Source of the DNA: a virus
Taxonomy: Duplodnaviria > Heunggongvirae > Uroviricota > Caudoviricetes
Strand: one strand, 5' to 3'
IMG/VR virus record: IMGVR_UViG_3300009826_000001
Span: 64,001-127,488 of that record
Length of the DNA stretch: 63,488 bases
Each line of letters opens with the position of its first letter. Positions within the stretch are counted from its first letter, which is position 1. The notes beneath the pieces are model-generated. The model was given only the letters and a program-made list of their open reading frames with translations. It was not told the origin of the DNA and did not search any database. Made by a program: the position numbers and the translations under genes. Positions 5,190 through 41,849 of the stretch are shown piece by piece.

Positions 5190-5367
5190 CGCCAAATCCT
5201 GCCAGTACCTGCTCGAAGCCGTCATCAAGGTCGGCGGGCTCCGCTATCGGCCCCCCTGGAAAACACCGGGCGACCAGCCTGCTGCGGTCGTCGGGAAAGT
5301 GAAACCAGCCCACCTCATCCGGCGTGATGAGGTGGGCGATCGGTTTCCCACAGTGCGCGCACATCAC
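5182..5367 (-). CDS. Small hypothetical protein (CxxC)
   Basis: CAHCGKPI; overlap coupling with neighbours. Confidence 0.4.
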   Translation of the reverse strand: MMCAHCGKPIAHLITPDEVGWFHFPDDRSRLVARCFPGGPIAEPADLDDGFEQVLAGFGDE

Positions 5368-6014
5368 AGCTCGATCTGCCGCCCGGTCGAAGTCCGGTCG
5401 GCGATAGGGCCGGGCTGGTCGAAGTCGATGGCCCGGGCATTGGGAGCCTCGGGCTTCGGCTTCGCCAGCTCGGCGTAGGCGATCAGCACGTTCTCCAGCT
5501 GCTGGCGGGCCCGCTCCATCGGATCGCGGCCCTCGATGGAGGCATACTTCGTGTATTCCACGCGCTCGCTGTCACGCGACCGGACCGGACCGACGCGCCG
5601 GCCGAGTTCTTCGGTGCGGTACTCGGTGCGGTACTCACCCCACATGCAGGTATTACCCGGCATCTGGCGCCACAGCGGGCCCGGCTTGTCGCGCCACACC
5701 ACCTCGGCGATCCCGTGGGTGCGCACCCGCTGGGTGAGCAGCGGCTCGCCGCCCCATAAACGGAACTCGTCGCGCACGTCGGTGACCTCGACATAGAACG
5801 CCGGCGGGTTGCGGATCTCGAGATTCGACCCGTCGTTGAACACGAACGACACGCTGCGGTACTGGTCTTCGTCGAGGTCAGACACGACCTGCTCGAACAG
5901 CTCGCCACCGGCTGCGGGCAGCCGCAACTGCCACCACCACCAGTCCGGCGGCAGGAGCGATGGCCGGCCCGCGCCCAGGTCGAGCAGCGAGGAGTAGAGC
6001 GTGACCTTGGTCAT
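5364..6014 (-). CDS. Hypothetical protein with C-terminal STGRQIEL tail
   Basis: 216 aa ORF with good codon bias; tail shared with three other proteins in the window. Confidence 0.65.
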   Translation of the reverse strand: MTKVTLYSSLLDLGAGRPSLLPPDWWWWQLRLPAAGGELFEQVVSDLDEDQYRSVSFVFNDGSNLEIRNPPAFYVEVTDVRDEFRLWGGEPLLTQRVRTHGIAEVVWRDKPGPLWRQMPGNTCMWGEYRTEYRTEELGRRVGPVRSRDSERVEYTKYASIEGRDPMERARQQLENVLIAYAELAKPKPEAPNARAIDFDQPGPIADRTSTGRQIEL

Positions 6015-6020
6015 GTCGAG

Positions 6021-6224
6021 TTACCACACCTTGCATGATTTACAGAGACCGATTTCGTAGGAACCCTGGACGATCATGGCAATAATGCCAGCGATAGCCG
6101 CCGTGGCCAAGATCGAAAGGACCAGTGTCGCGATCCAGAATAGGAAGTCCTCGCCGCCCATCGCCACCGCCAGTAGCACGATCATCAGCACCGCCAGGAC
6201 GATCCCGGTCACGAACAGGATCAC
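6021..6224 (-). CDS. Two-TM membrane protein
   Basis: GTGA overlap with the upstream HTH gene; two hydrophobic helices. Confidence 0.55.
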   Translation of the reverse strand: MILFVTGIVLAVLMIVLLAVAMGGEDFLFWIATLVLSILATAAIAGIIAMIVQGSYEIGLCKSCKVW

Positions 6225-6523
6225 TCGCGGGCGCCCTGCTGCTTGACCTGATAGGCCCACTCGCGAGTGCCCTGCTGCTTGATCTGATAGATGCGGCCCA
6301 TCGAGAGGCCCGCAGCTATATGGATCGGCACGGCGGTCAGGCCGGCGTCGAAGGCTTCCACGATCATTTTTTGCAACCGTTCCTCGGCGGTGCGTACCAC
6401 GCTGCGTTTGTGGGCCAGGTCAAGTGCGGCGGCCCGTAACTTTTTACACCAGGCGTCGACGACTTCGGCGCTCGCGCGGGAATGATGCGTCAGCACCCCA
6501 CCCTGCCCGTCTACAATTTGCAT
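6221..6523 (-). CDS. Small HTH DNA-binding protein
   Basis: AFDAGLTAVPIHIAAGLSMGRIYQIK helix-turn-helix pattern. Confidence 0.6.
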   Translation of the reverse strand: MQIVDGQGGVLTHHSRASAEVVDAWCKKLRAAALDLAHKRSVVRTAEERLQKMIVEAFDAGLTAVPIHIAAGLSMGRIYQIKQQGTREWAYQVKQQGARE

Positions 6524-6596
6524 GTCCGTTAGTATGCCACCACTAGTAACCCTGCCGCGATATACGATGGTGAGAAGCCGTTGGCATAGGAGCCGG

Positions 6597-6935
6597 GTGA
6601 ACGACCCCGTTGACGACCTGATCAGCCGGATCGACGCGCTGGTCGACTACCAGATGCACGGCGGCGAGGAAAACGCCGAGTGGCGCGCCCGCAACCATTA
6701 TCCCGTTGATGACGCCGGCCACTGCACCTGCCCGGCGTGTAACCGCTACGCAATCCCGCCTGCCTACGCCGAGCGCCAGGCCGCGCACCACCTCGACCAA
6801 TACCGCTGCTGGCAGTGCCAGAGGTATCTACCCGTGACGCGCGCCATCATCGGATTGCGACCCGGCACCTTTGGCGAGCAGGCGATTTGGTGCCAGGAGT
6901 GCCTTGATGCCTGGAGCCGAAGTCAGGGCCGATAG
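6597..6935 (+). CDS. Hypothetical phage protein (Cys-rich)
   Basis: SD AGGAG before GTG; DDLISRIDALVD N-terminal motif common in actinophages; three CxxC. Confidence 0.55.
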   Translation: MNDPVDDLISRIDALVDYQMHGGEENAEWRARNHYPVDDAGHCTCPACNRYAIPPAYAERQAAHHLDQYRCWQCQRYLPVTRAIIGLRPGTFGEQAIWCQECLDAWSRSQGR

Positions 6936-6967
6936 AGGAGTGCCCGGATTCGGGCGCTCAGATTCCT

Positions 6968-7369
6968 TCAGAAACCACTGAACCGGGGCGGTTCATCCTC
7001 GTCTTTAGCCTCGGTCGGCTCTAACGGCTCTAACGGCTCGGGATCGACCACTTCGGCCTGGACGTCCTCGGCTTCGTCGAGCGGTTGCGACTCAGGTTCG
7101 AATAGCTCAGGCTCGTTTTCGGACTGCCCGGTGGATTCGGGCGTCTCGCCACCTGGAACCTCGCCAAAGTGCTCGGGCGGCTCGTGCACGTCCTCGTTCA
7201 CTACGCCGTGCAGGCGCGCCACAGCGTCGCTGAGCGCGTCGACTGTCTCGGGCCTGACCTGGCCTGCGGCGACATCCTCTTTGAGCGCCTTCACCTGGTC
7301 CTGCACGGCGTCGATGCTGGCGTGCAGATTTTCAGCGATCTCGACGAGCACGTCGTCGATGTGCGACAT
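6968..7369 (-). CDS. Acidic coiled-coil protein
   Basis: SD GGAGG; heptad N-terminus and Glu/Pro-rich tail. Confidence 0.55.
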   Translation of the reverse strand: MSHIDDVLVEIAENLHASIDAVQDQVKALKEDVAAGQVRPETVDALSDAVARLHGVVNEDVHEPPEHFGEVPGGETPESTGQSENEPELFEPESQPLDEAEDVQAEVVDPEPLEPLEPTEAKDEDEPPRFSGF

Positions 7370-7683
7370 GACAAATTCCTCCATACGGCGGCGGGATACG
7401 GGCCAGAACCGGCACACGCGACAAGTATGCGGTCGCGTGATGAACATGGGGTGGATATGGGCCGACGTGTCTAATTCGGGCAGACCGCCAGTCGCGTGAC
7501 GCACGGAATCTTACGCGGCTGGCGGTTGATCGGGTTGATGCACATGTGCCACGGGTCGGCATCGCACGTCGGGCAGCGCCACGCGATGACACGGTAGTAA
7601 GCGCGCGGCCAGCCACGCAAAACGCCCCCGAGGTCGAGGTACGGCTGACTAACGGCGTTCACGCCTACTATTTTACCGTGGCT

Positions 7684-8232: not shown

Positions 8233-8233
8233 C

Positions 8234-9496: not shown

Positions 9497-10378
9497 ATGA
9501 GGGCCACGACGTCGGTCGCCTACGCCGGTTCAGACGAGTTCATCACGGCCGGCACGCCCGAGCACGCTCAGACCATCAGCCCGTCCAAGGTCGCGGCCAT
9601 CTGCGGGGTGAGCCGCTTCGAATCCCCTTACAGCCTGTGGTGCCGGATGAAGGGATGGACTGAGCCGATACCGCCCAACGACATCTTCGCGGTCGGCCAT
9701 GCTTTTGAGCCGGCCCTAGCAGCGCTGTGGAAGATCGAGAATCCGGGCTGGAAGCTGTCCAAGGGCGAGGTCCAGTACGTCACCGACAAGCTCGGCTTCC
9801 CGGCGGTGGCCACGCTGGACCGCCGCGCGGTGCGCGGCTCCAAGCGGCGCATCGTGGAGTTCAAGACCGCCCGGGACCTGTCCCTGTGGGGCGATCCCGA
9901 CCTGGACGGCGACTGCCCGGCCGACTACGCGCTGCAGGTGATCGCCCAGCAGGTCATCACCGGACTGGCCGAACCGGCGCACCTGATGGTGATGGGCCCG
10001 TTCTTCAAATGGCGCACCTACACGGTCTCCTACGACATCGAGGTCGCGTCCTGGATGCTGGAGAAGTGCCGGGCGTTCTACGCCAGCCTGCAGGCCGATG
10101 AGCCCCCGCCATTGGATAGCCATGTGGCGACCTACGCCAGCGTGCGCGAGCAACATCCCGACATCGAGGAGGGCCTGTCCGCAGAGATTCCCGCGGAGCT
10201 GGCGCGAGCGTGGCGCGAGCAGAGCCGGGTGGTCGAGGACGCCAACACCACCCTGCGCGGAGTGAAGGTCCGGGTGCTCAGCAACGTGCGCAACGCCCAA
10301 TACGTGACGTGTGACGGCCAGACGGTCGGCTCACGACGGCCGCATCGCAGCGGATCTGTGATGTTGGTGCTCAGATAA
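9497..10378 (+). CDS. YqaJ/RecE-like exonuclease
   Basis: ISPSKVAAICGVSRFESPYSLW, GHAFEP, ATLD, IVEFKT, YALQVIAQ; adjacent to RecT. Confidence 0.85.
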   Translation: MRATTSVAYAGSDEFITAGTPEHAQTISPSKVAAICGVSRFESPYSLWCRMKGWTEPIPPNDIFAVGHAFEPALAALWKIENPGWKLSKGEVQYVTDKLGFPAVATLDRRAVRGSKRRIVEFKTARDLSLWGDPDLDGDCPADYALQVIAQQVITGLAEPAHLMVMGPFFKWRTYTVSYDIEVASWMLEKCRAFYASLQADEPPPLDSHVATYASVREQHPDIEEGLSAEIPAELARAWREQSRVVEDANTTLRGVKVRVLSNVRNAQYVTCDGQTVGSRRPHRSGSVMLVLR

Positions 10379-13696: not shown

Positions 13697-14037
13697 CCGG
13701 CGCCGGATCTCTCAGGTGCACCTGGTGCGGGGCGCTGCCGGGAACGCCGTGCATGGTCCCGGCCGGCCCGGGCGCCAAGAAGAAACTTTTCCCGCGCGCA
13801 CCGCTGCGCCTGTCGAGTTACCACCCCAGCCGCATCGAGGCCGCAATGAAGCTGGATGGCGCCACAGAGGCCGAAATCGAGCAGCGGGTGACCGGAGTGC
13901 TCGGCGCGGCGGTCAACGCCGCCAGGGAGATCCTGGGGGATCGTAAACCCACGACCTACATCGCTGAGCCAGAGATCAAACCCACCGAGAAACCACAAGA
14001 ACCACAGGCACCGGAAGGAGAACCCACAGATGCCTGA
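13693..14037 (+). CDS. Zn-finger hypothetical protein
   Basis: CTWCGALPGTPC motif; ATGA overlap. Confidence 0.55.
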   Translation: MTGAGSLRCTWCGALPGTPCMVPAGPGAKKKLFPRAPLRLSSYHPSRIEAAMKLDGATEAEIEQRVTGVLGAAVNAAREILGDRKPTTYIAEPEIKPTEKPQEPQAPEGEPTDA

Positions 14038-14380
14038 TGTCACCCTTTCCGGCAAGCTTCCCGGCGGCAACGCCAATGGCCTGTCGCAGATCATCAAGTC
14101 GTTGATCGAGGAGCCCGATCGTGTCCATGCGCTGATGGTGCTGGTGTCCACGGCCAAGCTGGTGACCGAGGTGGATACCGGCGAGACTGTGCCGGCACTG
14201 CGCATCCGTCGCGTCGAGGTCATCCGCGACGAGGACTTGGCCCAGGCCCAAGGGCTCATCCTGCGCTCATGGGAGGAACGCAACGGCGGCCAGGTGTTGC
14301 CCCAGGATGTCGCTGACGAAGTCAGCCAGCTCGGTCTGGGACGTGAGATCGACCTGACGCCACCCGAGGTCGCCGAGTGA
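14030..14380 (+). CDS. Hypothetical protein
   Basis: SD AAGGAG; good codon bias. Confidence 0.6.
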   Translation: MPDVTLSGKLPGGNANGLSQIIKSLIEEPDRVHALMVLVSTAKLVTEVDTGETVPALRIRRVEVIRDEDLAQAQGLILRSWEERNGGQVLPQDVADEVSQLGLGREIDLTPPEVAE

Positions 14381-14657: not shown

Positions 14658-15647
14658 GTGTACTACCACGACGAGCAGATCACGCTGTATCACGGCGACG
14701 CGCTGGCGATCGCCCGGCAGCTGCCCGAGGACAGCGTGAACTGCATCTGCACCAGCCCGCCCTATTTCGGGCTGCGCAACTACGGCGACCCGGGCCAGTA
14801 CGGGCACGAGCCTTCCGTCGCCGAGTACGTCGAACGGCTGCGCGTGCTGTTCGCCGAGCTGCGCCGGGTGCTGGCCGACGACGGCACGGCGTGGCTCAAC
14901 ATCGGCGAGAGCTACGCGCGCAAGAACATGCTGGGGATTCCCTGGAGTGTGGCGCTCGCGCTCCAGGCCGATGGCTGGTTCCTGCGCAACGCGATCGTGT
15001 GGGAGAAGATCAAGACCGTGCCGGAGTCCGTGGTCGACCGGCTCTCCAACCGCTACGAGCACATCTTCCTGCTTTCCAAGGCCGCGAACTATTGGTTCGA
15101 TCTCGATCCGATCCGTGACGAGCGCAAGGACCCCAAGCCCGACGCCGGCTGGTCACAGTGGGACCAGCATCCCTACCAGCCCAGCGAACGGCTCAAGGGG
15201 ATGCCTGAGCGCAAGGCCAAGTGCCGGGAGCTGCTGAGCCAGGGTGTGGGCCAGGAGAAGGCGGCGGAGCTTGCGGGCGTCAGCAAGGGTGTGGCGTGGG
15301 AGCTGGCCAACGGCATCGAGCGCGGTATTCACAAGCGGTCGCGCAAGGCCACCGGCGACGTCAACCGCGGCACCAACCCCGGCGACGTGTGGAAAATCTG
15401 CACCGAGTCCGTGCCGGGTCACCCGGCGGTGTATCCGCTCGCACTGCCGGCGCGCTGCATCGTCGCCGGCTGTAAACCCGGCGGGACCGTGCTCGATCCG
15501 TTCTCCGGCTCGGGAACGACCGGCCTGGCGGCCCAGCAGCTCGGGCGCAGCTACATCGGCATCGACATCAACGCGCAATACCTCGACCTGTCGCTGCGCA
15601 CCCGGCTGGCCGGGCGGCTGATGGACTTCGGGGAGACGGGAGCCTGA
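14658..15647 (+). CDS. DNA N6-adenine/N4-cytosine methyltransferase (beta class) with HTH-like insertion
   Basis: TSPPYFGLRNY catalytic motif; VLDPFSGSGTTG SAM-binding motif; HPAVYP. Confidence 0.9.
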   Translation: MYYHDEQITLYHGDALAIARQLPEDSVNCICTSPPYFGLRNYGDPGQYGHEPSVAEYVERLRVLFAELRRVLADDGTAWLNIGESYARKNMLGIPWSVALALQADGWFLRNAIVWEKIKTVPESVVDRLSNRYEHIFLLSKAANYWFDLDPIRDERKDPKPDAGWSQWDQHPYQPSERLKGMPERKAKCRELLSQGVGQEKAAELAGVSKGVAWELANGIERGIHKRSRKATGDVNRGTNPGDVWKICTESVPGHPAVYPLALPARCIVAGCKPGGTVLDPFSGSGTTGLAAQQLGRSYIGIDINAQYLDLSLRTRLAGRLMDFGETGA

Positions 15648-20589: not shown

Positions 20590-20756
20590 TGGTCGATCCC
20601 AAAGATGCGGTTGAGCACCCGTTGCCAGGGCTTCTGGATGAACGCCCCGTACACGATGTGCCCGATCAGCACGCCCAGAAGCAAGCTGGGAATCCAGATC
20701 CACGCCGGGAGTCCGTCACCTATCCAGTCCGAGATCCAGCGCCAGACGCCGCTCAT
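20586..20756 (-). CDS. Small TM protein
   Basis: ATGA overlaps; WIWIPSLLLGVLIGHIVYG. Confidence 0.45.
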   Translation of the reverse strand: MSGVWRWISDWIGDGLPAWIWIPSLLLGVLIGHIVYGAFIQKPWQRVLNRIFGIDQ

Positions 20757-21562
20757 GATCGCGCCTTTGCGATGAGACAGTTCACGGAGGGCTGATCGCG
20801 CCAATAGCCTTGGTAGGTGTCGATCAGCCATTGATCCAGCTGTTCCCGGTCGGCATGGTCAGGCAGATCGGACGAGACTGTGTGCGCAACCAGTTCGTCG
20901 CGCAGATCCTCGATGCTGTCCAGGACGGTCTGCTTGTCGACGCCACCGCGCCGCACGTCAAGTAGCCAGTCGCACTGGGGCTGTGGGATCGGCAGGGTGA
21001 TCTTGCCGCTGCTCAGCAGCTCCACTCCCTGAAACCCGAGCCGTAGCGCGTGGTAGGCGAATTTGGTGTCGAAACCGTGGATTTTGATCAACTCAGGCCG
21101 GTTGGTGCGTTGAGAGCGCAGGCCCAGCATCCGATCGCGCTGCCCGTCGAGGTAGCCGATGAACCGGCGCCCGCAGTCGCGGCTCAAGAACATAGGCGCG
21201 TTCTTCTGCAGCTCCACGCCTGGCAGCCCTACAGACACCACCTCGTGTGCCGGGACGAACAACAGCAGCAGCACGGTGGGATTGCCGGCGGCGGCCAGCC
21301 GTGCCCATTTCCGCAGCGAGTAGATGACCAGGTCCAAGTCGCCCGGTCCCGACCGCACCCCCTCGGGCTGGGTGCGGTATTGGTATTGCTCGAAACGCCG
21401 GAGCCCGATCACGCACTCGGGCGGCTCGATGCAGACCCCCATCTCGTCGCGGTCGTCGGTCCCGGCCACCGTCACGCCGTGCAGCCCGGAACCGACCTGG
21501 GCGCGCAGGATCGTGTTGTCGATGGCGATCTGGCGGTGCCAGTCGCTGGTGTGTGCGCTCAT
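20753..21562 (-). CDS. Nucleotidyltransferase (Pol-beta superfamily)
   Basis: QVGSGLHG...DDRDEMG (GS + DxD), YSLRKW...GNPTVL. Confidence 0.85.
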   Translation of the reverse strand: MSAHTSDWHRQIAIDNTILRAQVGSGLHGVTVAGTDDRDEMGVCIEPPECVIGLRRFEQYQYRTQPEGVRSGPGDLDLVIYSLRKWARLAAAGNPTVLLLLFVPAHEVVSVGLPGVELQKNAPMFLSRDCGRRFIGYLDGQRDRMLGLRSQRTNRPELIKIHGFDTKFAYHALRLGFQGVELLSSGKITLPIPQPQCDWLLDVRRGGVDKQTVLDSIEDLRDELVAHTVSSDLPDHADREQLDQWLIDTYQGYWRDQPSVNCLIAKARS

Positions 21563-23351: not shown

Positions 23352-23698
23352 GGCGTTCCTTTCAGTCGCGCCGCGGCCTGCTCGACAGCGTCCAGTCTCC
23401 GTAGCCGCTCGTTTTCCTCGCGGATCGCCTGGCCGAACTCAATGTGGTCAAGCTGGTGCCGCAGGGCCTCAACAGCAGGAATGTCCTCCAGGCTTACCGG
23501 GGGATACGCACCGTGGATACCGGCCGTCAGATCACCCGACATCAGCGCGTTGTGTTGAGCATCGGCGCGTTCGGCCAACGCCGCCAGATGCTTGTGCTCT
23601 AGCCGCCGTGTGATCCGCCGGTCATCAATCAGCATCAAGCAGAACGGGACGAGCGCGATGAAGACCAGCAAGAGTAGTCCGAACACGTCTTTGCTCAT
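23348..23698 (-). CDS. Membrane-anchored protein with RADxQH...G.HG.YPP motif
   Basis: N-terminal TM; motif shared with 62101-62283. Confidence 0.6.
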   Translation of the reverse strand: MSKDVFGLLLLVFIALVPFCLMLIDDRRITRRLEHKHLAALAERADAQHNALMSGDLTAGIHGAYPPVSLEDIPAVEALRHQLDHIEFGQAIREENERLRRLDAVEQAAARLKGTP

Positions 23699-24171
23699 GC
23701 GGTTTCCAGTCCTTTCCCGGTAGGTATGCCCGGCTGCCAGTCGCGCTGGCGTGCCGCCGTGCGGCCGTACTGCGCCTCCATCTCCTCCTGTGTGCCCACG
23801 TTGCTCACCCAGAGCAGGAACGGGAACTGTTCCTCCCAGCCCTCCGGCACGACCCACAGGTGGTACTCGTTGGCCGCGTCGGTGAGCGCGGACTCCGGTG
23901 GAAACACCTCGCAGGCCAGCCGTTCAGGGCCAGCGACCTCGTTCTTGATCGCCTGGAAATGGCGCCAGTCGCGTACCGCGGCCCGGTTGTGCCGATGGAA
24001 GCTGATGTGCAGCGCACCCTCGCCGATCTCACGGACAAACACCGAGTACAGATCGTTGACGTAGGTGCGGTCGGGAACGGATAGGCCGTTGCTGACGAAC
24101 GGCTCCGGGTCGGCCGGCGCGCACAGCCGTAAGGGCTGCCAACGCCGCACGGGTTTGCGCTTGGCCTTCAT
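23695..24171 (-). CDS. Conserved hypothetical phage protein
   Basis: LHISF...DWRHFQAIKNEVAGPE...EVFPPES.L.D.AN.YHLWV, a widespread phage domain. Confidence 0.7.
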   Translation of the reverse strand: MKAKRKPVRRWQPLRLCAPADPEPFVSNGLSVPDRTYVNDLYSVFVREIGEGALHISFHRHNRAAVRDWRHFQAIKNEVAGPERLACEVFPPESALTDAANEYHLWVVPEGWEEQFPFLLWVSNVGTQEEMEAQYGRTAARQRDWQPGIPTGKGLETA

Positions 24172-26885: not shown

Positions 26886-28004
26886 TTAGGCGGGCATCCG
26901 AATCGGCATCATCATGTGGAAATCGTCGTCGTAGCCGGCGCCGGTGAGCACCACCGGCTTGTGCGGGTGGTTGGCGTCGAGTTGCAGTGCCCCCGACGCG
27001 ATACCCTTGGCACACTCCTCGAGGCTGGTGCGCGCCAGCCGAACCGTGAACGGCAGCTCACCCGCGAACGCGAGATAGGTCACTTCGATCGACTGCTCGA
27101 TCTCGGTGTCGCCGGCGCGGTCGGTACTGACCACCCGCATCACACCCTGTCCTTCGTCGTCGGGTTCCTCAAGAGTCAGGGTGACGTCTTCACCCTTGCC
27201 CATCGCCGCCAGCAGATCGCGCCGCCGGAACATCACCGACACCGCAGCCGACTCCGGGATCAGGTTCTGCCACTTCGGGAAATCAGCGTCGAGCACCCGC
27301 GTGATGCTGATCCGTTCATCAGCACTGCGCAGCCGCAGCGCACCGATGCCGATGCGCGCCCCGTCACCGGCAAGCCGGCCGCCTTCGATGAAGATGGCCT
27401 CGTCGCCGGCAGCGAACGGCCGCAGGGCCGCACCGCTGACCGACGCCGTGATGCCGCCCTCCCTGTCATAACGGATGCGCGACAGTCGGATGCGGTTCGT
27501 GGACACCATCATGCCCTCGTCGAACCGCAGCGCGGTCAGCGCCGGCAAGGTGTCGTCGGTGCCGATCGACACCAGCGCACGGGCCAGCTGCCGCGCGCTG
27601 ATCAACGTTTCATCGGCGTCATCAGGAATGAACTTCGGCCAGGTCGGAAACTCGGCCCCGCCCACATTCATTGCCTTGAGCTTGACCGTCCGCTCTGCCG
27701 ACGAGATCGTCAGATGGGTGTCGGTGATCGTGAGATCGGCCACCCCTGTCACCGTTTTGGCGATGGGCTTGAGCTGGGCCACCAGATTGCCGGGATCAAT
27801 CAGGATGGTCGCGTTGGCGCCCCCATCGGCATCGAGCACCGCCTCGACGAACACCTCGTAATCGGTGCGCCGCAGCCGCAGTCCACCGACGAGCGCTGTG
27901 ACTTCCACAGCACCTAGCACGGGGACGCTGCGTGACGGCGGCACAGCCCTGGCGATCCAGGTCGCCTGCCGTGCCAAGTCAGCGGCGTTCACTGTGAGAT
28001 TCAT
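26886..28004 (-). CDS. dnaN: DNA polymerase III beta sliding clamp-like protein
   Basis: 372 aa; PVLGAV, RTDYEV, EFPTWP, STNRIRL, DFPKWQNLIP, KPVVL...MMMPIR. Confidence 0.85.
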   Translation of the reverse strand: MNLTVNAADLARQATWIARAVPPSRSVPVLGAVEVTALVGGLRLRRTDYEVFVEAVLDADGGANATILIDPGNLVAQLKPIAKTVTGVADLTITDTHLTISSAERTVKLKAMNVGGAEFPTWPKFIPDDADETLISARQLARALVSIGTDDTLPALTALRFDEGMMVSTNRIRLSRIRYDREGGITASVSGAALRPFAAGDEAIFIEGGRLAGDGARIGIGALRLRSADERISITRVLDADFPKWQNLIPESAAVSVMFRRRDLLAAMGKGEDVTLTLEEPDDEGQGVMRVVSTDRAGDTEIEQSIEVTYLAFAGELPFTVRLARTSLEECAKGIASGALQLDANHPHKPVVLTGAGYDDDFHMMMPIRMPA

Positions 28005-28571: not shown

Positions 28572-28795
28572 CAGTTCTCCTTCACTAGTGGTTGATCGCC
28601 GTTGAGGTCGACGATCCGTCCGTAGGTGTGCTGCTCTAGCACTTCGGAGGGCCATTGGCCGTCCTGCACCATATCGACCAGGTCAAAAAGTCCCTGGCGA
28701 TCGAAATCCGATGCCACCGGCACGCGGTAGGTAATCCGCTCGTGTGTGGTCACCGTGATGGTTAACAGCCGGCCAGCATCATCGACGGGACTCAC
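28571..28795 (-). CDS. Small hypothetical protein
   Basis: GTGA overlap with the SWIM gene. Confidence 0.45.
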   Translation of the reverse strand: MSPVDDAGRLLTITVTTHERITYRVPVASDFDRQGLFDLVDMVQDGQWPSEVLEQHTYGRIVDLNGDQPLVKEN

Positions 28796-29166
28796 AGGTC
28801 GATCTGCCGTCCAGTCGATGCCCGGTGCGCGACCGGGACGCTTCCGCCCAGGTCCAAGAACGCGGTACGGGCGCTGGCCAGCATCGCCAGCGTGGCCGCA
28901 TCGAGCTCCATCTTCGCCTCGAACTCGACCTTGACCAGCCGCGCCAGAATGTCCGTCAAGTGCTTGCACTTGCGGTGCCGTTTCCAGCCCCAGCAGTCGC
29001 AGCCCCAGCTCCCATCGCTGCGGCGTTGAGCCACCCGGTAGACCGACGACGAGCTGGTGGACTTCACCATGAAGCGGTTGATCCATTGCGCGTTGTTGTC
29101 ATCCAGCGAGCTGCCGATCTGCGCGGCGATCTTCTCGACCTGGCTACGTGGTGTGTGTGTCATCAC
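28792..29166 (-). CDS. SWIM zinc-finger protein with C-terminal RTAFLDL...STGRQIDL tail
   Basis: WGCDCWGW...CKHL (CxC-xn-CxH). Confidence 0.8.
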   Translation of the reverse strand: MMTHTPRSQVEKIAAQIGSSLDDNNAQWINRFMVKSTSSSSVYRVAQRRSDGSWGCDCWGWKRHRKCKHLTDILARLVKVEFEAKMELDAATLAMLASARTAFLDLGGSVPVAHRASTGRQIDL

Positions 29167-31944: not shown

Positions 31945-32928
31945 TTAGGACGCCGCTGCCTTGCGGGGAGCGGCCTTGCGGGGAGCTGCCTTCTTGGCGG
32001 GTGCCTTCTTGGCCGGAGCTTTTCCCTTGGCGGGATGCGCCGCGATGGACGCCTCCAATGCGGTGTCTTCGTCCAGGCTGACCGCCGGCTTGCTTCCCTT
32101 CTTGGCCGCCACGCTGGCTTCCAGCTTGGCGATCAGGTCGCTCACGTCGTCCGGTGGTGCGTCGGGAGCGTCCGCAGTGACCTCAATGGACTGTCCAGCC
32201 GCCCTGGCCTCGATCGCCTTGGACAACTGCTGCTGGTACACGTCGACGTATTCAGCAGGGTTCCAGTCCTCGATCATGGCTTGCACGACCGACCGGCCCA
32301 CCGGCAACAGCCGCTGATCCACTGGCACATCCTTGGCCTCGGTGAGCACGGAGAACGCCGGGGAGCGCACCTCGTCGGGCCACAGCATGTTCTGGACCAC
32401 CAGGATGCCGCCGAACTCAGTGGGTTCGGGCCGCAAGATCGCGATCCGGTTGGTGGTTCGCATGGTGTACTGCACGACCGCGACCAGGTCTTCTTCGGTC
32501 ATGATCTGCAGGATCATCTTGTAGGTGGCGATCGCCGCGTTGCCGCCGCGCTTCGGGTTCTTGTCAGGCAACAGGTAGTACGCCTTCTCGCCGGAGAACA
32601 TCAGCGACTTGATCTCCTTGAGCCGCACGAAGCGCAGGATCTCCATGCCACCGCCGGCGTTCGTGACGATGGCGTCCTTGTCGGCCGGCGTGAGAAACAC
32701 GATGCCGTCGTCGTGCTCATAGCCGCTGACCAGATCGCCCTGCTGGACGGTCACTTCGCAGGTGGCACACATGCGGGGCATCGTGATCCGCGTGTAGCTG
32801 CCATCGGCGTGGGGGCCGTGATAGTTGCCAGCAGGCCGATCGTGGTTGTCGATCGCGGTCATCAGCTGGATGGGGAAGTTGACCAGCCCCATTCCCAGGC
32901 TGCCGTTATAGATGGATCGAGGACTCAT
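31945..32928 (-). CDS. ku: Ku-like DNA end-binding protein with PAKK-rich tail
   Basis: RSIYNGSLGMGLVNFPIQL, YYLLPD, AVVQYTMR, MLWPDEVR, WNPAEYVDVY; basic AKKAP repeats. Confidence 0.9.
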   Translation of the reverse strand: MSPRSIYNGSLGMGLVNFPIQLMTAIDNHDRPAGNYHGPHADGSYTRITMPRMCATCEVTVQQGDLVSGYEHDDGIVFLTPADKDAIVTNAGGGMEILRFVRLKEIKSLMFSGEKAYYLLPDKNPKRGGNAAIATYKMILQIMTEEDLVAVVQYTMRTTNRIAILRPEPTEFGGILVVQNMLWPDEVRSPAFSVLTEAKDVPVDQRLLPVGRSVVQAMIEDWNPAEYVDVYQQQLSKAIEARAAGQSIEVTADAPDAPPDDVSDLIAKLEASVAAKKGSKPAVSLDEDTALEASIAAHPAKGKAPAKKAPAKKAAPRKAAPRKAAAS

Positions 32929-33344: not shown

Positions 33345-34955
33345 TCAATGTGCCAGATACTCGTTGTAAACCTTGTCGGCCTTGAGTTTGCCGGTCATAA
33401 CCTCCTCAACGGGTGCCAGCGTGTAGCCGTTGGCGGCGAGGAACTCCAGGTAGCACTTGGCGCCCACAGCACGCGACCACTCGTTGACCGACTTGCGCCA
33501 CTCGTCCTTGGGCGTGCGATTCTCCAACGCGCCCAGCACCAGCCCAAGCGTGATCACCAGTGCGCGGGGATCGCCGGTGTCGGGCAACGCGTCCAGCACC
33601 GCACCCAGACTGGCCGCCTGCGACTCGTCCTTGTCCTTGCGTACCCCGTACTCAAACCGGCTGCGCCTGACGCTGTCGACGCCGAGCAGCTCCGCGGTCA
33701 CGTCGCCGGCATGGTAGTCGGACAGCAGATGGCCGTCGTCGGTCAGGCATTTGGCGATGAAGATCGCCGCGCCCTGAGGCGGTGTCTTGCGCTCCAGCAT
33801 GGCCTTGACGAACTCGCGGCGGACCTGCTGGGCCGCATCGCCCAGTCGGTTGAGCGCGATCACCTTGCGCCGTTCGCGCTTCTCAGCCTTGGCCGCTTCG
33901 GCTGCCGCCATTGGCGTCTGCTGACCGGCCTCACCGGCCCTCGTCGGTCGGTCGGGACGCTTACGCAGCCGCAGTCCCGCACCCTCGACGTCGATGCAGT
34001 AGTAGTCGGCGACGAAAGCCTCCCGTTCCTCGACGCTGTCGGCATGACGCAGACCTTCCTCGGGCTCGGCATCGGGCCGACCTTCGGTTGTCCAGTCGAC
34101 CCATTCCTCGTCGAGGAACTCGCCGGTCTTCTTGTCGACCAGCACGGTTTCCTCGATCAGATGCACCGCCCACAGCTTCGGATTGGCGGTAGTGGCGTCC
34201 TTGGTCACGTCCCCGCCGTCGCTGGTTTCCAGCCGGTCTAGCGCGATGTACTTCTCGTCAAAGCTGCTGGGCCAGTGGTCGACAGTGGTGAACCCGACCT
34301 CGCGGTAGCTTTCTGCGGCCTTGTCCAGCTTCTCGTCGCGCTTGCGCCGCTCGCGCAGCTGCGCGGCGACGTGCTCGAAGCTGGAATGACCCACGCTGTT
34401 GCGCAGCCGGACCAGGGCCTGCTCGTCGCCATCGAACTCCGCGAGCACTGCGGCCTCGGCGAACGTGAGCTGGCTGTTCTCTTTGAGCTCGTCGAGCGCG
34501 AGCTGTGAGGCGCCGATCGCCTTGGCCGCTTTGATCGTCGCTGGCGGGACCGACAGCTTCTTGGCGATCTTGGCCTGCGACATTCCGACGCCCAGCAACT
34601 CCTGGATGCCCAGCACCCGCTCCACGTTGGTGAGCTCCTGGCGTTGATCGTTTTCGACGATCTGAGTGGTCACCCGCTCGACCGTGTTCTCGATCAGCTC
34701 CAGCGGCGCCTCGGTGATGTAGACCGGGATGCTGGCTAATCCGGCCTTGCGCGCCGCAAGAGTGCGGCGCTGGCCTAGTCGGACCCTGACCGTCCCGTCC
34801 GCATCACGCGTGGCGCCCACCGGCTCCAGCACGCCGTGCTCGGCGATGCTGGCCAGGAAGTCCTTGGTCAGATTCGCCTCGGTGCGGACGTTGGTGTCCA
34901 GCACCAGCGTGTTCGGGTCGAGAAATTCGAGGTGGCCGTTGTCCTGGTTACTCAT
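33345..34955 (-). CDS. parB: ParB/RepB/Spo0J family partition protein
   Basis: LDTNVR...SIAEHGVLEP...GQRRTLAA...ENDQRQELTNVER, HTH GMSQAKIAKKL; SD GAAAGGAAG. Confidence 0.85.
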   Translation of the reverse strand: MSNQDNGHLEFLDPNTLVLDTNVRTEANLTKDFLASIAEHGVLEPVGATRDADGTVRVRLGQRRTLAARKAGLASIPVYITEAPLELIENTVERVTTQIVENDQRQELTNVERVLGIQELLGVGMSQAKIAKKLSVPPATIKAAKAIGASQLALDELKENSQLTFAEAAVLAEFDGDEQALVRLRNSVGHSSFEHVAAQLRERRKRDEKLDKAAESYREVGFTTVDHWPSSFDEKYIALDRLETSDGGDVTKDATTANPKLWAVHLIEETVLVDKKTGEFLDEEWVDWTTEGRPDAEPEEGLRHADSVEEREAFVADYYCIDVEGAGLRLRKRPDRPTRAGEAGQQTPMAAAEAAKAEKRERRKVIALNRLGDAAQQVRREFVKAMLERKTPPQGAAIFIAKCLTDDGHLLSDYHAGDVTAELLGVDSVRRSRFEYGVRKDKDESQAASLGAVLDALPDTGDPRALVITLGLVLGALENRTPKDEWRKSVNEWSRAVGAKCYLEFLAANGYTLAPVEEVMTGKLKADKVYNEYLAH

Positions 34956-38802: not shown

Positions 38803-39144
38803 TTAACCTCGTGGGTGCCAGCTGGCGCCCCCGTCGTGGGAGTGAACTCCCTTCTGGACGGCCTTCTGGCTGATCTTGCGACCGGCCCGCTGCTCGGCCT
38901 CGATGACCCGCTGCATGGTTCCTTCCGAACCGCGGTTCATGAGCATCTGGTAGATGCACACGTCCGTCATGCCGGCGCGCAGCTGCTCGTCGAGCCCCGT
39001 GAATGTCACGGCACCCTGTGGGCCCACCTTGATGCCCACCTTGCGTTTGGCGACCAGTTTGTCGATGTCGGTGACCGCCTTTTTGACCTCGGCCCGTCGC
39101 TGCGCCTGCGTCTGGTTGCGCCTGGGCCGCGAATAGCACGGCAT
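38803..39144 (-). CDS. Small basic protein of the AAA ATPase module
   Basis: KVGPQGAVTF...TDVCIY...GVHSHDGGASWH; SD GAAGGGA. Confidence 0.7.
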   Translation of the reverse strand: MPCYSRPRRNQTQAQRRAEVKKAVTDIDKLVAKRKVGIKVGPQGAVTFTGLDEQLRAGMTDVCIYQMLMNRGSEGTMQRVIEAEQRAGRKISQKAVQKGVHSHDGGASWHPRG

Positions 39145-39146
39145 GG

Positions 39147-39368
39147 TTATTTCCCTTCCTCGTCGTCGTCCTGGCTGAACCAGCCGGGATCTTTGGGCAA
39201 GTCGCCGCCCATTTTGCGGATCTCGTCCTCGGCTAACTGGACGAATTCGTACAGCACGTCGTGTTCCGCGTCGTTGGAGCCACCCTCGCTCATGGCGTCA
39301 TAGGCGCGAGCCAAGAGATCCTGTACATAGCGCAGATGCGTGCCCTTCTCGGCCAGCTCGTGTGCCAT
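39147..39368 (-). CDS. Small acidic protein
   Basis: TGATG overlap with the upstream gene. Confidence 0.55.
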   Translation of the reverse strand: MAHELAEKGTHLRYVQDLLARAYDAMSEGGSNDAEHDVLYEFVQLAEDEIRKMGGDLPKDPGWFSQDDDEEGK

Positions 39369-40108
39369 CAGATCACCAGCTCCAGTGAGCGGCCGGCGCC
39401 CGACACCGGCTCGGCGATCTCGTCGGCGGAGTCGAGGTCCAGGAACGCCGTGCGCGACTCGGCGATGAGCCGGATGGTGGATCGCTCCATCTCCCCGACG
39501 ATCGCGTCGCCGCGCTTCTTGATCCGCGTGGCCGCCCCGCGCGCCGCTTTGATGACTTCCTCCAGCTCGGCCTTGGCCTCGCCGTCGAGCATCTGGCCGA
39601 CGTTCTGCGCCTCGTTGGCGATCTGGCGCACCCGCTTGACGTCGAGCTTCTCCAGGCCGATCTCCATCTGGCGCATGAACTCGCCGACCTTGTTGAAGAT
39701 CGTCTTGGCCGCCTCGACGTCGTCCTGCTGGACCTCGCCACAGATCAGATTGAGCTGGATGTGGTTGTAGATCGCCATCGAGTTGAAGTCGTTGACCAAC
39801 TGCCGCGCGTCGGCAATGCCCTTCTCCAATTCGTCTCTGCGGTCGAGTGGGCAGATATACCACCCCTTCGATTTCGAGCACGGTCGCAGGATCAGCGTGC
39901 GCGCCCTGTTGCGGATCTTCTCGGCCGATCGCTGCTCGTCGGGGTCGGCGACGCGCTTGCGCACGTTCATCTCGGACTCGACCGAACCGTCGTCCTGCTC
40001 GGTCGGGTACTCGATCACCTCCCTGGTATAGCTCGTGTTGCCGCGGTTCGATGTGCCCAGCGACACGAGGATTCCGGGCTTGACCCGGGCGACGAAAGTG
40101 GTGCTCAT
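39368..40108 (-). CDS. Coiled-coil partner of the AAA ATPase with RTAFLDLD...GRSLEL tail
   Basis: 246 aa, helical C-terminal half; SD AGGAG. Confidence 0.7.
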   Translation of the reverse strand: MSTTFVARVKPGILVSLGTSNRGNTSYTREVIEYPTEQDDGSVESEMNVRKRVADPDEQRSAEKIRNRARTLILRPCSKSKGWYICPLDRRDELEKGIADARQLVNDFNSMAIYNHIQLNLICGEVQQDDVEAAKTIFNKVGEFMRQMEIGLEKLDVKRVRQIANEAQNVGQMLDGEAKAELEEVIKAARGAATRIKKRGDAIVGEMERSTIRLIAESRTAFLDLDSADEIAEPVSGAGRSLELVI

Positions 40109-40163
40109 TTCTTTCTCCTGTTCATTTCCGTGGGGTTTGTGCGATACCCGGATTCGGGTGTCG

Positions 40164-41849
40164 TCACAGGTCGAGCTGACGGCTCTGTGAGGCGACCGAC
40201 CGTGTCATGGTCAAGACCTGCTCAGTTCTGGTGGCCGGCTTGGCACGCCCGGCCCATTCCTCGCGCAGATCCCTGATCTCCTTGTCCTTGGTCTTGGCCA
40301 GCGGCACCACGTCGCGCGCCGCCATCAACAGATCCTTTGTGGTGATCTCGCGCTGGCCGTCCGCGAACGCGGTGTACATGCCGTCACGCACCAGTGCGGC
40401 GATCTCTGCGCCGGTGAACGTGTTGGTGGCCGAGGCGATCTCGTCCAGGTCCATGTCGGCCATCGCGTCGGCATCGCGCTTGCGCTCCCGCAACGCCGCC
40501 CGTGCCACGGCCACCCGCTCGGTCTCGTTGGGCAGATCGACCCAGAAGATTTCGTCGAAGCGGCCCTTACGCATGAACTCCGGCGGGAGCGCCGAGGCGT
40601 CGTTGGCCGTGGCCATGACGAACGCCTGTCCGTTGCGTTCCTGCATCCACGTCAGGACCGCACCCAGCATGTCCGCAGACACGCCGCCGTCAGCACTCCC
40701 TGACGTGGCGCCCTGCAGCGCCTTCTCGATCTCGTCCCACCAGACGATGCACCGGCCCAGCGCCTCGATCACGCTGAACGCCTTGCGCAAGTTCTGCTCG
40801 GAGTCGCCGACGAACTTGCTCTTGAGCGCACCCAGGTCGAGCCGGATGACCGGCACGCCCCACTCGATGCCGGTGCATTTGACGATGAGCGACTTCCCGC
40901 AGCCCGAGATGCCGATCAACAGGATGCCCAGCGGGGTGGGCAGGTTGTACTCGCGCGCCGCGTCGCTCCAGGCCATCTCGAGGCGTTTGAGGAACAGTTT
41001 GGTGTTCTCATGGCCGCCGACGCACTCGAAGCCACCGGGGCCCTCGATCCATTCCAGTGCCGGATTGCTGGCGATCACCTGCTTTTTCTCCTGGGCGACC
41101 ATCGCCGGGTCGATCACCTGCTTGAGCACCAACGAGGTCGCAAAACACGACGCGGCCTCGTTCTCGGTGAGCCCGATCGAGGCGTCGATCGCCGCTGTGC
41201 GCGCCTCGCCGCTGATGGATGCCCGAATCGCTGCCTTCATGTCCGCGGTGATCCTCGCTTCACCCGTTTCCGGGTCGACCGCTTCGCTGTTGAGCAGCGG
41301 CTCGCAGGCGTCATCGAGGATCTTGCCCATCTCGAATCGGTCGGGCATCGGCCAGTCGACGACCTGGGCGTCACTGGCGATCTCCGGCGGGATGTCGGGA
41401 TTGGCGGTGACGATGATGATGGTCTGGGCTCGGTCGCTGGGCAGCTTGGGCAGGTCGTTGATCAGGTTCCGCAAGGCACGCTGGTTGATCCAGAACGGCT
41501 CCTTGAGGTAGGGGATCAGGTCGAACATCACCCATACACAGCGGCTGCGGTTCTCGCGGATCACAGTGAACGCCTCGCGCACGTCTTCGACACCGCGATC
41601 ACCCATCAGCTGCCTGCCGGCCAAGTCGGTGAAACCGCGGGCGACGTCGTAGTAACGGGTTTCGTACTGCGGCCGGATGGATGCGGCCATCTCGAACAGA
41701 TACCGGCCGGCGCGAGCTTCTTGGGCGGTACGGACGATGATGAGGCCGGTGCGTGCTCGGACCTTTGCCTGGACCATCGTTGCGGCGACTTTCGAGGCGA
41801 ATTGGGGCGCCTCGGGCTTCGCACTCTTGCGGGGGGACTTAACGGACAT
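40164..41849 (-). CDS. AAA+ ATPase (Ycf46/Vps4-like; degenerate N-terminal plus active C-terminal AAA domain)
   Basis: Walker A GISGCGKS, Walker B VWWDEIEK, ATAN sensor, PPEFMRKGRFDE arginine finger; C-terminus SRQLDL. Confidence 0.9.
   Translation of the reverse strand: MSVKSPRKSAKPEAPQFASKVAATMVQAKVRARTGLIIVRTAQEARAGRYLFEMAASIRPQYETRYYDVARGFTDLAGRQLMGDRGVEDVREAFTVIRENRSRCVWVMFDLIPYLKEPFWINQRALRNLINDLPKLPSDRAQTIIIVTANPDIPPEIASDAQVVDWPMPDRFEMGKILDDACEPLLNSEAVDPETGEARITADMKAAIRASISGEARTAAIDASIGLTENEAASCFATSLVLKQVIDPAMVAQEKKQVIASNPALEWIEGPGGFECVGGHENTKLFLKRLEMAWSDAAREYNLPTPLGILLIGISGCGKSLIVKCTGIEWGVPVIRLDLGALKSKFVGDSEQNLRKAFSVIEALGRCIVWWDEIEKALQGATSGSADGGVSADMLGAVLTWMQERNGQAFVMATANDASALPPEFMRKGRFDEIFWVDLPNETERVAVARAALRERKRDADAMADMDLDEIASATNTFTGAEIAALVRDGMYTAFADGQREITTKDLLMAARDVVPLAKTKDKEIRDLREEWAGRAKPATRTEQVLTMTRSVASQSRQLDL

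What the first reader, a model, noticed from the sequence alone, without database searches (positions are those of the whole stretch)
5364..41849. Four unrelated proteins share a C-terminal docking-like tail (R-[QS]-[IL]-[DE]-L): candidate AAA-ATPase/sliding-clamp interaction network
Seen in sequence. AAA ATPase (40164-41849) ends ...SVASQSRQLDL*. Its neighbour (39368-40108) ends ...ESRTAFLDLD...VSGAGRSLELVI*. The SWIM protein (28792-29166) ends ...SARTAFLDLG...RASTGRQIDL*. The unknown protein at 5364-6014 ends ...NARAIDFDQ...RTSTGRQIEL*. Two share RTAFLDL exactly, and 5364-5390 vs 28792-28818 match at 24/27 nt, although the genes are 23 kb apart and otherwise unrelated. Established: short C-terminal peptides mediate hub binding, and the bacterial beta-clamp motif is QL[SD]LF. 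This window encodes its own clamp (26886-28004) about 800 bp from the SWIM gene. Inference: the tails form a phage-specific address tag that plugs several proteins into one hub (the phage clamp, the AAA ring itself, or a host protease/adaptor). The motif lacks the terminal F of the canonical clamp motif, so clamp binding is a hypothesis only.
Basis: partly seen in the sequence, partly recalled or inferred. Interest (0 to 1): 0.85.

Follow-up and report, generated by a model that had tools for sequence, protein, structure and literature searches.

The report
Shared docking tails of phage AAA system
Four proteins of this Mycobacterium-type phage really do end in the same short peptide, and that peptide is the conserved signature of a widespread, uncharacterised Ycf46-like AAA+ ATPase system, not of the phage's sliding clamp, so it most likely recruits partner proteins to that ATPase machine.

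Summary
All four tails read as printed, and 4 of 215 predicted proteins end in R-x-[IL]-[DE]-L where about 0.1 is expected. The tails are conserved in relatives. Roughly 88% of the AAA ATPase relatives sampled end in R-x-[LI]-D-[LIF]. The neighbour family P2 has an invariant ARTAFLDL helix end plus one or two R-x-Φ-[DE]-Φ motifs. The closest SWIM relatives carry the same two-part tail and more distant ones lack it. The fourth protein has no relatives; its tail looks like a recent copy of the SWIM tail.

The AAA is a Ycf46-family ATPase with a degenerate first domain and an intact second one. It sits in a conserved module (AAA, P2, His-motif protein) in 77-79 of 82 phage loci. Only 2 of 18 near-complete module-bearing phage genomes encode a clamp, so the phage clamp is not the general hub. 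In cellular relatives the tail tracks an adjacent DUF1257/Ycf35-like gene (25/30 versus 9/47), and operon partners carry the same motif.

The tails are therefore best read as a portable docking motif of the Ycf46-like AAA system. The receptor was not identified; the one co-folding job gave no answer. A sibling note in this scan had flagged the same operon.

The parts
40164..41849 (-). Ycf46-family AAA+ ATPase (561 aa). Residues about 18-260 form a degenerate D1-like domain; the D2 domain has intact Walker A/B, pore loop and Arg fingers; residues about 540-561 form a disordered tail.
   Evidence: Pfam AAA and AAA_lid_3; phrog_8638; AF2 model with pLDDT 93 and tail pLDDT about 50; whole-length match to plastid Ycf46, TM 0.80/0.90; invariant residues listed.
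40167..40181 (-). Terminal motif of the AAA, R557-Q-L-D-L561.
   Evidence: R557 and D560 are conserved in at least 90% of 120 relatives. Nearly all of the 120 best relatives end in R-x-[LI]-D-[LIF] followed by 0-3 residues.
39368..40108 (-). P2, the conserved neighbour of the AAA (246 aa, phrog_11021, function unknown). N-terminal beta-sheet, then a helical bundle, then a disordered tail.
   Evidence: AF2 model pLDDT 89; no convincing match to a solved fold.
39431..39454 (-). P2 motif A, R219-TAFLDL-D226, at the end of the last helix (204-226).
   Evidence: F222 is invariant and R219, L223 and D224 are at least 90% conserved in 79 sequences. A221, F222 and L223 are invariant in 20 sequences.
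39371..39394 (-). P2 terminal motif B, G-R-S-L-E-L-V-I.
   Evidence: Relatives carry GR-x-[LIV]-D-[LF], usually with a second terminal x-[LIV]-E-[LIM].
38803..39144 (-). HSH protein (113 aa, phrog_11784), the third core gene of the module. It has no tail and ends in an HSHDGGxxWH motif.
   Evidence: Present in 77 of 82 loci. C3, C63 and H103 are invariant and H101 nearly so.
28792..29166 (-). SWIM-like CxCx8CxH zinc-finger protein (124 aa) with the two-part tail.
28849..28872 (-). SWIM protein motif A, A99-RTAFLD-L106.
   Evidence: A99, R100, A102, L104 and D105 are invariant in 15 tail-bearing relatives.
28795..28812 (-). SWIM protein terminal motif B, G-R-Q-I-D-L.
5364..6014 (-). Protein with no relatives (216 aa) that carries the tail.
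   Evidence: Codon score 81.7 and GC3 0.89. No relative in the phage records or the 5.8-billion-protein search.
5421..5435 (-). Internal B-type motif of that protein, R194-A-I-D-F198.
   Evidence: Same form as Corndog gp95 GRAIDFE.
5367..5384 (-). Terminal motif of that protein, G-R-Q-I-E-L. It is near-identical at the DNA level to the SWIM tail.
   Evidence: 24/27, 28/33 and 36/45 nt.
26886..28004 (-). It is not part of the conserved system.
   Evidence: It co-occurs with the module in only 3 strong matches and 1 weak match among 25 records, and in 2 of 18 near-complete records.

Best explanation
The tails are a conserved, portable short linear motif that belongs to a Ycf46-family AAA+ ATPase system. 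The system has three core genes: the AAA, its partner P2 and the small His-motif protein HSH. The motif module has up to three elements: a helix end [AS]-R-x-A-[FY]-L-D-[LF] (motif A), a flexible linker of 8-25 residues, and one or two copies of R-x-Φ-[DE]-Φ (motif B), the last at or near the C-terminus. The AAA carries one motif B on a disordered tail of about 20 residues, so a hexamer would display six. P2 carries motif A plus one or two B copies. In some phages, including this one, a SWIM zinc-finger protein carries A plus B.

In this genome the tail has also been copied onto a protein that has no relatives. The most likely mechanism is tethering: every bearer docks on one receptor site of the AAA machine. 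That site could be the AAA ring or pore, or a tail-less partner. The bearers would then be recruited as adaptors or clients of an active protein translocase, and the AAA's own tails would either compete with them or bind the same partner.

What is shown: the motif is real, conserved and modular, and it is linked to the AAA system by co-occurrence. What is inferred: that it is a binding peptide, that all bearers share one receptor, and that the receptor lies inside the system. The receptor itself was not identified.
For: The enrichment is far beyond chance.

Conservation in relatives:
- AAA tail: R557 and D560 are at least 90% conserved, and nearly all of the 120 best relatives carry the motif. 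A further set gave 68 of 76 viral-locus relatives and 35 of 40 sampled metagenome relatives.
- P2: motif A is invariant and one or two B motifs follow in 64 distinct relatives.
- Corndog gp95 has three motifs and gp96 ends RVLDL*.
- The closest SWIM relatives carry A plus B, with A99, R100, A102, L104 and D105 invariant. More distant SWIM proteins of about 90 aa stop before it.

Properties of a linear motif: the tails are disordered in AF2 models (pLDDT 50-65) and follow confidently folded domains. Codons differ between families, so selection acts on the peptide.

Link to the AAA system:
- AAA, P2 and HSH occur together in 77-79 of 82 loci, and no other gene family is core.
- Tail-bearing SWIM genes lie beside the module (L172, L175, L035/L036). 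None of 9 records with tail-less SWIM genes has P2, and the positive control found P2 in 5 of 5.
- In cellular relatives of the AAA the tail tracks an adjacent DUF1257 gene: 25/30 versus 9/47, p = 2.6e-8.
- Unrelated operon partners there carry the same R-F-[DE]-K-L-E-Φ motif at an N- or C-terminus. A motif shared with partners therefore recurs in the cellular branch of the family too.

The D2 domain has intact Walker A/B, sensor-1 Asn, Arg fingers and a K-F-V-G pore loop, so the AAA can plausibly act as a translocase.
Against: No receptor was identified. No column in the AAA body tracks the presence of the tail, so a tail-specific pocket in the AAA itself is not evident. Cellular relatives with tails lack P2 and HSH. 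The phage loci lack DUF1257, and neither P2 nor HSH is detectably homologous to it. If there is one receptor across the family, it would have to be the AAA itself or a host factor. In monomer models the tail does not dock on its own chain. The motif in this phage and its closest relatives (R-Q-L-D-Φ) resembles the first four positions of the bacterial clamp-binding pentapeptide, so a host hub cannot be ruled out.
Confidence: 0.5

Rival explanations
1. The tails are variant clamp-binding motifs that dock the AAA hexamer, P2, the SWIM protein and the 216-aa protein on the host beta sliding clamp (DnaN). This would recruit a protein-remodelling ATPase to replication forks or to loaded clamps.
For: In this phage and its closest relatives the AAA ends RQLDL, RQLDI, RQLDF, RQLDIL or RQLDII, and some P2 relatives end RTLDLFAF* or RALDLFA*. 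By established knowledge (recalled, not tested here) the clamp motif is QL[SD]LF or QLxLxL, often at a C-terminus after a flexible linker, and the clamp pocket is conserved across bacteria. That would explain why the motif persists in phages of varied GC content and in cellular relatives from many phyla.
Against: Across the family the position of the defining Gln is usually A, V, K, S or T, and the aromatic fifth position is usually missing. The conserved residues are instead an Arg before the motif and an Asp/Glu. Motif A has no counterpart in clamp motifs. In cellular genomes the tail tracks DUF1257, not any replication gene. MAGs labelled archaeal carry it too (L096, L119). No replication function is known for Ycf46 in the papers found.
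Confidence: 0.12
2. The hub is the phage's own DnaN-like clamp (26886-28004).
For: The clamp gene lies 788 bp from the SWIM gene. Corndog and one close relative (G001) also carry both a clamp and the module.
Against: No clamp lies within 10 kb of the module in 82 loci. A clamp was found in 3 strong matches and 1 weak match among 25 whole records, and in only 2 of 18 records at least 90% complete. Phages with Q-type tails (L042, L057) have none. The tail is also present in cellular relatives of the AAA.
Confidence: 0.03
3. The tails bind an unidentified host protein other than the clamp, or act as a C-terminal degradation or threading tag read by a host protease (ClpXP, Lon or FtsH type). This would co-regulate the lifetime of the bearers.
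For: The motif is conserved across phages and cells of many phyla although the known partners differ: P2/HSH in phages and DUF1257 in cells. The terminal position with a hydrophobic last residue is typical of C-terminal degrons (established knowledge). No pocket signature was found in the AAA.
Against: Many copies are internal or followed by 1-4 residues: the first B motif in P2 tails, RVLDIA*, RSLELVI*. Cellular partners carry the motif at the N-terminus. A free C-terminal carboxylate is therefore not required. Several copies per protein suggest avidity in binding, not a degron. The tail co-occurs with specific partner genes, not independently of them.
Confidence: 0.25
4. The resemblance is chance or reflects shared DNA (a terminator or regulatory site overlapping the 3' ends) without any protein function.
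For: Two of the four tails (5364-5390 and 28792-28818) are near-identical at the DNA level.
Against: Enrichment has p below 1e-4. The motif is conserved at the protein level across hundreds of relatives that use different codons.
Confidence: 0.01

Closest known systems
Bacterial beta-clamp-binding motif (QL[SD]LF / QLxLxL)
   Same: A short, often C-terminal peptide after a flexible linker, shared by unrelated proteins. In this phage the AAA tail QLDL matches positions 1-4.
   Different: Across the family Gln is not conserved and the aromatic fifth residue is mostly absent; the invariant residues are Arg and Asp/Glu. The motif comes with a second helical element, motif A. It co-occurs with an AAA system and not with a clamp.
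Adaptor-tethering peptides of AAA+ machines (SspB XB peptide on the ClpX N-domain; SHP/VIM/VBM motifs of p97 cofactors; the p97 C-terminal tail bound by PUB/PUL domains; HbYX tails of proteasomal ATPases). Recalled from established knowledge.
   Same: Short motifs on flexible tails connect several unrelated proteins to one AAA+ hexamer. As with p97 and the proteasomal ATPases, the ATPase carries a docking tail at its own extreme C-terminus. The D2 domain here is most similar in sequence to p97/Cdc48 D2.
   Different: The motif sequence is different: no Tyr as in HbYX, and no likeness to XB or SHP. The ATPase and its partners carry the same motif. The receptor is unknown. The ATPase has no separate N-domain ahead of its D1-like domain.
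Ycf46 (AAA+) and Ycf35/DUF1257, conserved genes of unknown function in cyanobacteria and plastids
   Same: The phage AAA matches Ycf46 over its whole length (TM 0.80/0.90, 25-29% identity). Cellular relatives with the tail sit next to DUF1257 genes.
   Different: Plastid Ycf46 proteins stop where the phage tail begins (aligned to query residues 22-542). The phage system has P2 and HSH in place of DUF1257, with no detectable homology to it.
Red-type Rubisco activase CbbX, which pulls the C-terminal tail of RbcL into its pore (recalled from established knowledge)
   Same: An AAA+ of the same broad SpoVK/Ycf46/Vps4 group that engages a client through its C-terminal tail.
   Different: CbbX has a single AAA domain and a known single client. 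Here several clients and the ATPase itself share the tail, and no client function is known.

Membership tests
Beta-clamp-binding motif (QL[SD]LF / QLxLxL) | Consensus with conserved Gln at position 1 and hydrophobic/aromatic residues at positions 4-5 | tested here: not met
   This phage's AAA tail is QLDL*, which fits positions 1-4 only. Across the family position 1 is A, V, K, S, T or Q, position 5 is usually absent, and the conserved residues are Arg and Asp/Glu.
Beta-clamp-binding motif (QL[SD]LF / QLxLxL) | Bearers occur together with the clamp they bind (here the phage-encoded clamp) | tested here: not met
   No clamp within 10 kb in any of 82 loci; 2 of 18 near-complete module-bearing phage genomes have a clamp. 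The host clamp is always present, so this says nothing about it.
Beta-clamp-binding motif (QL[SD]LF / QLxLxL) | Physical binding in the hydrophobic pocket of DnaN | not testable with these tools
The clamp was not folded with a tail.
Ycf46-family AAA+ ATPase | Whole-length fold match to Ycf46: a D1-like domain followed by a classic-clade AAA domain with lid | tested here: met
   Foldseek gave TM 0.79-0.80 by query and 0.88-0.90 by hit to five Swiss-Prot Ycf46 entries, E 1e-34 to 1e-38. Pfam AAA and AAA_lid_3.
Ycf46-family AAA+ ATPase | Intact ATPase and translocation motifs in the second domain | tested here: met
   Invariant G313/G316/G318/K319 (Walker A), D372/E373 (Walker B), V347/G348 (pore loop KFVG), N416, R427/R430. 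The first domain has no P-loop.
SWIM zinc finger | CxCxnCxH signature | tested here: met
   C56-x-C58-x8-C67-x-H69, invariant in 15 relatives.
SWIM zinc finger | Match to a curated Pfam family model | tested here: not met
   No Pfam family at E <= 0.01 for this protein.
HbYX docking tail of proteasomal ATPases | Hydrophobic-Tyr-X at the extreme C-terminus | tested here: not met
   None of the four tails in this genome contains a Tyr, and the terminal motifs listed for AAA relatives show none. The analogy is in manner of working only.
Short linear docking motif (general) | A short conserved peptide in a disordered region, conserved in orthologues and transferable between unrelated proteins | tested here: met
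   Tail pLDDT is 50-65 after well-folded domains. The motif is conserved in three families and present on unrelated proteins, including one with no relatives that acquired it through a DNA-level copy.
Short linear docking motif (general) | A demonstrated binding partner | tested here: inconclusive
   The partner is inferred from co-occurrence only. No receptor was identified.

The most novel reading that the evidence does not exclude
The R-x-Φ-[DE]-Φ tail, together with motif A, is the recruitment code of the Ycf46-family AAA+ translocases. Each lineage would write this peptide onto whatever proteins it wants handled by the machine: P2, SWIM and lineage-specific proteins in phages; TPR, zinc-ribbon and other operon partners in bacteria. 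A small tail-less partner would be the receptor or co-factor (DUF1257/Ycf35 in cells, HSH or the P2 body in phages). If so, the client list of a conserved but functionally unknown ATPase family of bacteria, cyanobacteria, plastids and phages could be read directly from genomes.
Probability: 0.3. Interest if true: 0.8.

Novelty: new variant of a known kind. Interest (0 to 1): 0.66.

Why it matters
Ycf46 and Ycf35/DUF1257 are conserved genes of cyanobacteria, plastids and many bacteria, and no mechanism is known for them. The phage version (phrog_8638, phrog_11021 and phrog_11784, all 'unknown function') occurs in thousands of metagenomic sequences and in all 34 cluster O mycobacteriophage records matched. 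A shared, easily recognised peptide that marks the ATPase and its partners gives a direct experimental handle. Peptide pull-downs, tail deletions and two-hybrid tests in M. smegmatis with Corndog could identify the receptor and the clients. Genome scans for the motif could then predict clients in other lineages. The result also shows that a likeness to the clamp-binding motif can mislead when only one genome is read.

Tried and rejected
- Co-folding of the AAA (residues 1-540, alignment A2) with the P2 tail (residues 200-246, alignment A3) returned 'no answer': score 0.00 and no controls run. It counts neither for nor against binding.
- I looked for the tail docking in cis in monomer AF2 models of the AAA and P2. 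Both tails stayed disordered.
- I searched for AAA body columns that track tail presence, as a pocket signature. None is shared by cellular and phage tail-bearers.
- I tested whether P2 or HSH is a hidden DUF1257. hhalign probabilities were 0.06% and 0.44%, and hmmsearch with a DUF1257 profile found nothing in the genome or the 82 phage loci.
- Fold and sequence searches for P2, HSH and DUF1257 against PDB, AFDB and the Atlas gave no convincing match, only weak DUF3150-like rows for P2.
- The 216-aa protein has no relatives, so conservation of its tail cannot be tested.
- The terminal residues of the AAA and P2 tails show no visible co-variation across loci.
- A strict R-K-Φ-E-[LF]-stop DNA pattern in five cellular genomes hit only the AAA itself and two spurious short frames.
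- Contigs of two tail-bearing SWIM representatives were too short to show context.
- Literature searches on Corndog gp95/gp96, Ycf46 and DUF1257/Ycf35 found no functional or structural work on the tails.
- Considered from memory and set aside:
  - PDZ class II ligands, because internal and N-terminal copies exist.
  - The ParB N-terminal LGRGLxALL peptide, which matches only R-x-L-D.
  - HbYX, because there is no Tyr.
  - The SSB tail, because these tails are not acidic.

Full report
**The observation**

The window is the second half of a complete 127,488-bp, 65% G+C phage genome with direct terminal repeats.
- AAA ATPase, 40164-41849: ends ...SRQLDL*.
- Its neighbour P2, 39368-40108: ...ESRTAFLDLD...GAGRSLELVI*.
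- CxCx8CxH (SWIM-like) protein, 28792-29166: ...SARTAFLDLG...TGRQIDL*.
- 216-aa protein, 5364-6014: ...ARAIDFDQ...TGRQIEL*.

I predicted 215 genes for the whole genome with a codon-usage gene caller. R-x-[IL]-[DE]-L occurs only nine times in 37,809 residues. Four of these lie within two residues of a C-terminus, against 0.06-0.15 expected. In 2,000 shuffles the count never exceeded two, and the Poisson p is 2e-5 or lower.

The two tails that lie 23 kb apart are 24/27, 28/33 and 36/45 identical at the DNA level. The AAA tail matches them at only 18-19/27. One pair is therefore a recent DNA copy. Across families the likeness is kept at the protein level.

**Relatives and conservation**

The nearest cultured relatives are the cluster O mycobacteriophages such as Corndog: AAA 45% identical, P2 40%. 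Corndog gp96 (the AAA) ends RVLDL*. gp95 (P2) carries SSFLDFE, GRAIDFE and GYALDFEEVV*.

In the 5.8-billion-protein collection the AAA has more than 4,000 relatives. Nearly all of the best 120 (48-65% identical) end in R-x-[LI]-D-[LIF] followed by 0-3 residues. R557 and D560 are at least 90% conserved.

The P2 family has an essentially invariant [AS]-R-T-A-F-L-D-L. One or two R-x-[LIV]-[DE]-[LFIM] motifs follow, the last at or near the C-terminus.

An exhaustive HMMER search with the SWIM protein shows that most of the roughly 17 closest cluster representatives carry the two-part tail. Within 15 tail-bearing relatives A99, R100, A102, L104 and D105 are as invariant as the zinc ligands. More distant SWIM proteins of about 90 aa end just before it.

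The 216-aa protein has no relative anywhere. The refutation test 'tails not conserved in homologs' therefore fails for three of the four proteins and cannot be applied to the fourth.

**What the proteins are**

The AAA gives a confident AF2 model (pLDDT 93) with three parts:
- A degenerate P-loop-like first domain (about residues 18-260) with no Walker A.
- A classic-clade AAA domain with intact Walker A/B, a KFVG pore loop, sensor-1 and Arg fingers.
- A disordered last 20 residues.

It matches plastid Ycf46 proteins over the whole length (TM 0.80/0.90). Those proteins stop where the phage tail begins. The second domain is closest in sequence to p97/Cdc48 D2.

P2 (pLDDT 89) has a beta-sheet and a helical bundle. 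Motif A is the end of its last helix and the rest of the tail is disordered. It has no convincing structural or sequence relative of known function.

**The conserved module**

I fetched 80 IMG/VR loci with the P2 profile and two further metagenome loci.
- The AAA is present in 79 of the 82 loci and P2 in 79.
- A 113-aa protein ending HSHDGGxxWH (here 38803-39144) is present in 77.
- No other gene family is core.
- This third protein (HSH) has invariant C3, C63 and H103, which suggests a metal site, and it has no tail.

Tail-bearing SWIM genes lie directly after the module in several phages. Their tails are conserved, for example SARTAYLDLD...RVLDL*.

**Is the clamp the hub?**

No clamp gene lies within 10 kb of the module in any of the 82 loci. 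I searched 25 whole module-bearing virus records with the phage clamp family phrog_947.
- Three gave strong matches and one a weak match.
- Only 2 of the 18 records at least 90% complete encode a clamp.
- Records whose tails contain the clamp-like Gln (L042, L057) have none.

At family level the defining Gln and the aromatic fifth residue of QL[SD]LF are not conserved. An Arg and an Asp/Glu are conserved instead.

The phage clamp is thus not the general hub. The host clamp remains possible but is not favoured.

**Link to the AAA system**

Of the nine virus records that hold tail-less SWIM genes, none has the P2 family; three of these records are at least 94% complete. The same search found P2 in five of five positive controls. 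Tail-bearing SWIM genes, by contrast, lie with the module.

The AAA family also exists in cellular genomes of many phyla at about 35% identity. About 30 of 80 of these end in R-K-[LIM]-E-[LF]* or a loose form of it.
- The tail goes with an adjacent DUF1257 (Ycf35-like) gene: 25 of 30 tail-bearers against 9 of 47 tail-less relatives, Fisher p = 2.6e-8.
- Unrelated partners in those operons carry the same motif. A TPR protein begins MARFDKLEF. A zinc-ribbon protein has RRFEKLEN and RRFERLEI near its N-terminus. A 945-aa protein ends RFEKLEI*, and a 398-aa protein ends RFKKLEMD*.

A peptide shared between the AAA and its partners therefore recurs in the cellular branch of this ATPase family too; it is not a quirk of one phage.

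**What remains open**

The receptor is unknown.
- Cellular tail-bearers lack P2 and HSH.
- The phage loci lack DUF1257, and neither P2 nor HSH is detectably related to it.
- No AAA body column tracks the presence of the tail.
- The tails do not dock in cis in monomer models.
- The one co-folding job (AAA with the P2 tail) gave no answer and is not used as evidence.

**Reading**

The best-supported account is that the tails are a portable docking module of the Ycf46-like AAA system. They would tether adaptors or clients, together with the ATPase's own tails, to a common site on that machine. This resembles the way SspB, p97 cofactors or HbYX tails work in other AAA+ systems (recalled knowledge), but with a different motif and the unusual feature that the ATPase and its partners carry the same peptide.

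In this phage the network has four members. The SWIM protein belongs to a tail-bearing subfamily. The protein without relatives gained its tail by a recent intragenomic copy.

Rivals are a host hub (the beta clamp or another protein), a degradation tag, and the phage clamp.

I found no paper describing these tails. A sibling note of this scan had noted the AAA, coiled-coil and His-motif operon and the Ycf46 likeness. I checked both here and they hold.

Noticed in passing
window 14030-14380 (+), motif at 14342-14359: A 116-aa protein ends ...LGLGREIDLTPPEVAE*, that is G-R-E-I-D-L seven residues from the C-terminus. It may be a fifth tail bearer, in a different operon (rightward, next to a DNA methylase). 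Its only phage-database relative is a weak Microbacterium phage hit.
   Followed up: partly
window 38803-39144 (-): The HSH protein family has invariant C3, C63 and H103, nearly invariant H101, and the HSHDGGxxWH end. This looks like a metal-binding site built from both termini. No relative of known function was found.
   Followed up: partly
L186:8391-11108: A 124-kb viral contig carries a different arrangement: a distant AAA (24% identical), then a SWIM protein, then a DUF1257 protein. SWIM proteins thus recur beside Ycf46-type systems of both kinds.
   Followed up: no
L102:5830-11306, L117:5866-11310, L128: Planctomycete operon: tailed Ycf46-like AAA, DUF1257, a zinc-ribbon/S26-like protein, a TPR protein starting MARFDKLEF, and a T2SSE-type ATPase. 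A radical SAM gene lies upstream in L102 and L117.
   Followed up: partly
L003:9593-11632: In one phage the AAA and P2 genes are separated by a 154-aa protein with ...SGLDFEDDKPKE* and a 253-aa protein whose C-terminal sequence suggests an HNH/AP2-type homing endonuclease. An 80-aa Lys-rich protein upstream ends RFANLDID*.
   Followed up: no
L001 (Corndog) gp120, 23518-24123: Corndog gp120 ends ...EDDDELVDF*, an acidic tail with a terminal Phe that recalls the SSB C-terminal tail.
   Followed up: no
window 9497-10378, 14658-15647, 20753-21562, 31945-32928, 33345-34955: Other annotated genes in the window: YqaJ-like exonuclease, N6/N4 DNA methylase, RlaP-family nucleotidyltransferase (RNA repair), Ku with a Lys/Ala-rich tail, and a large ParB-like protein.
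   Followed up: no
window 39147-39368 (-): A small, very acidic 73-aa protein (...WFSQDDDEEGK*) sits between P2 and HSH. It was not recovered as a core family in the other loci.
   Followed up: no
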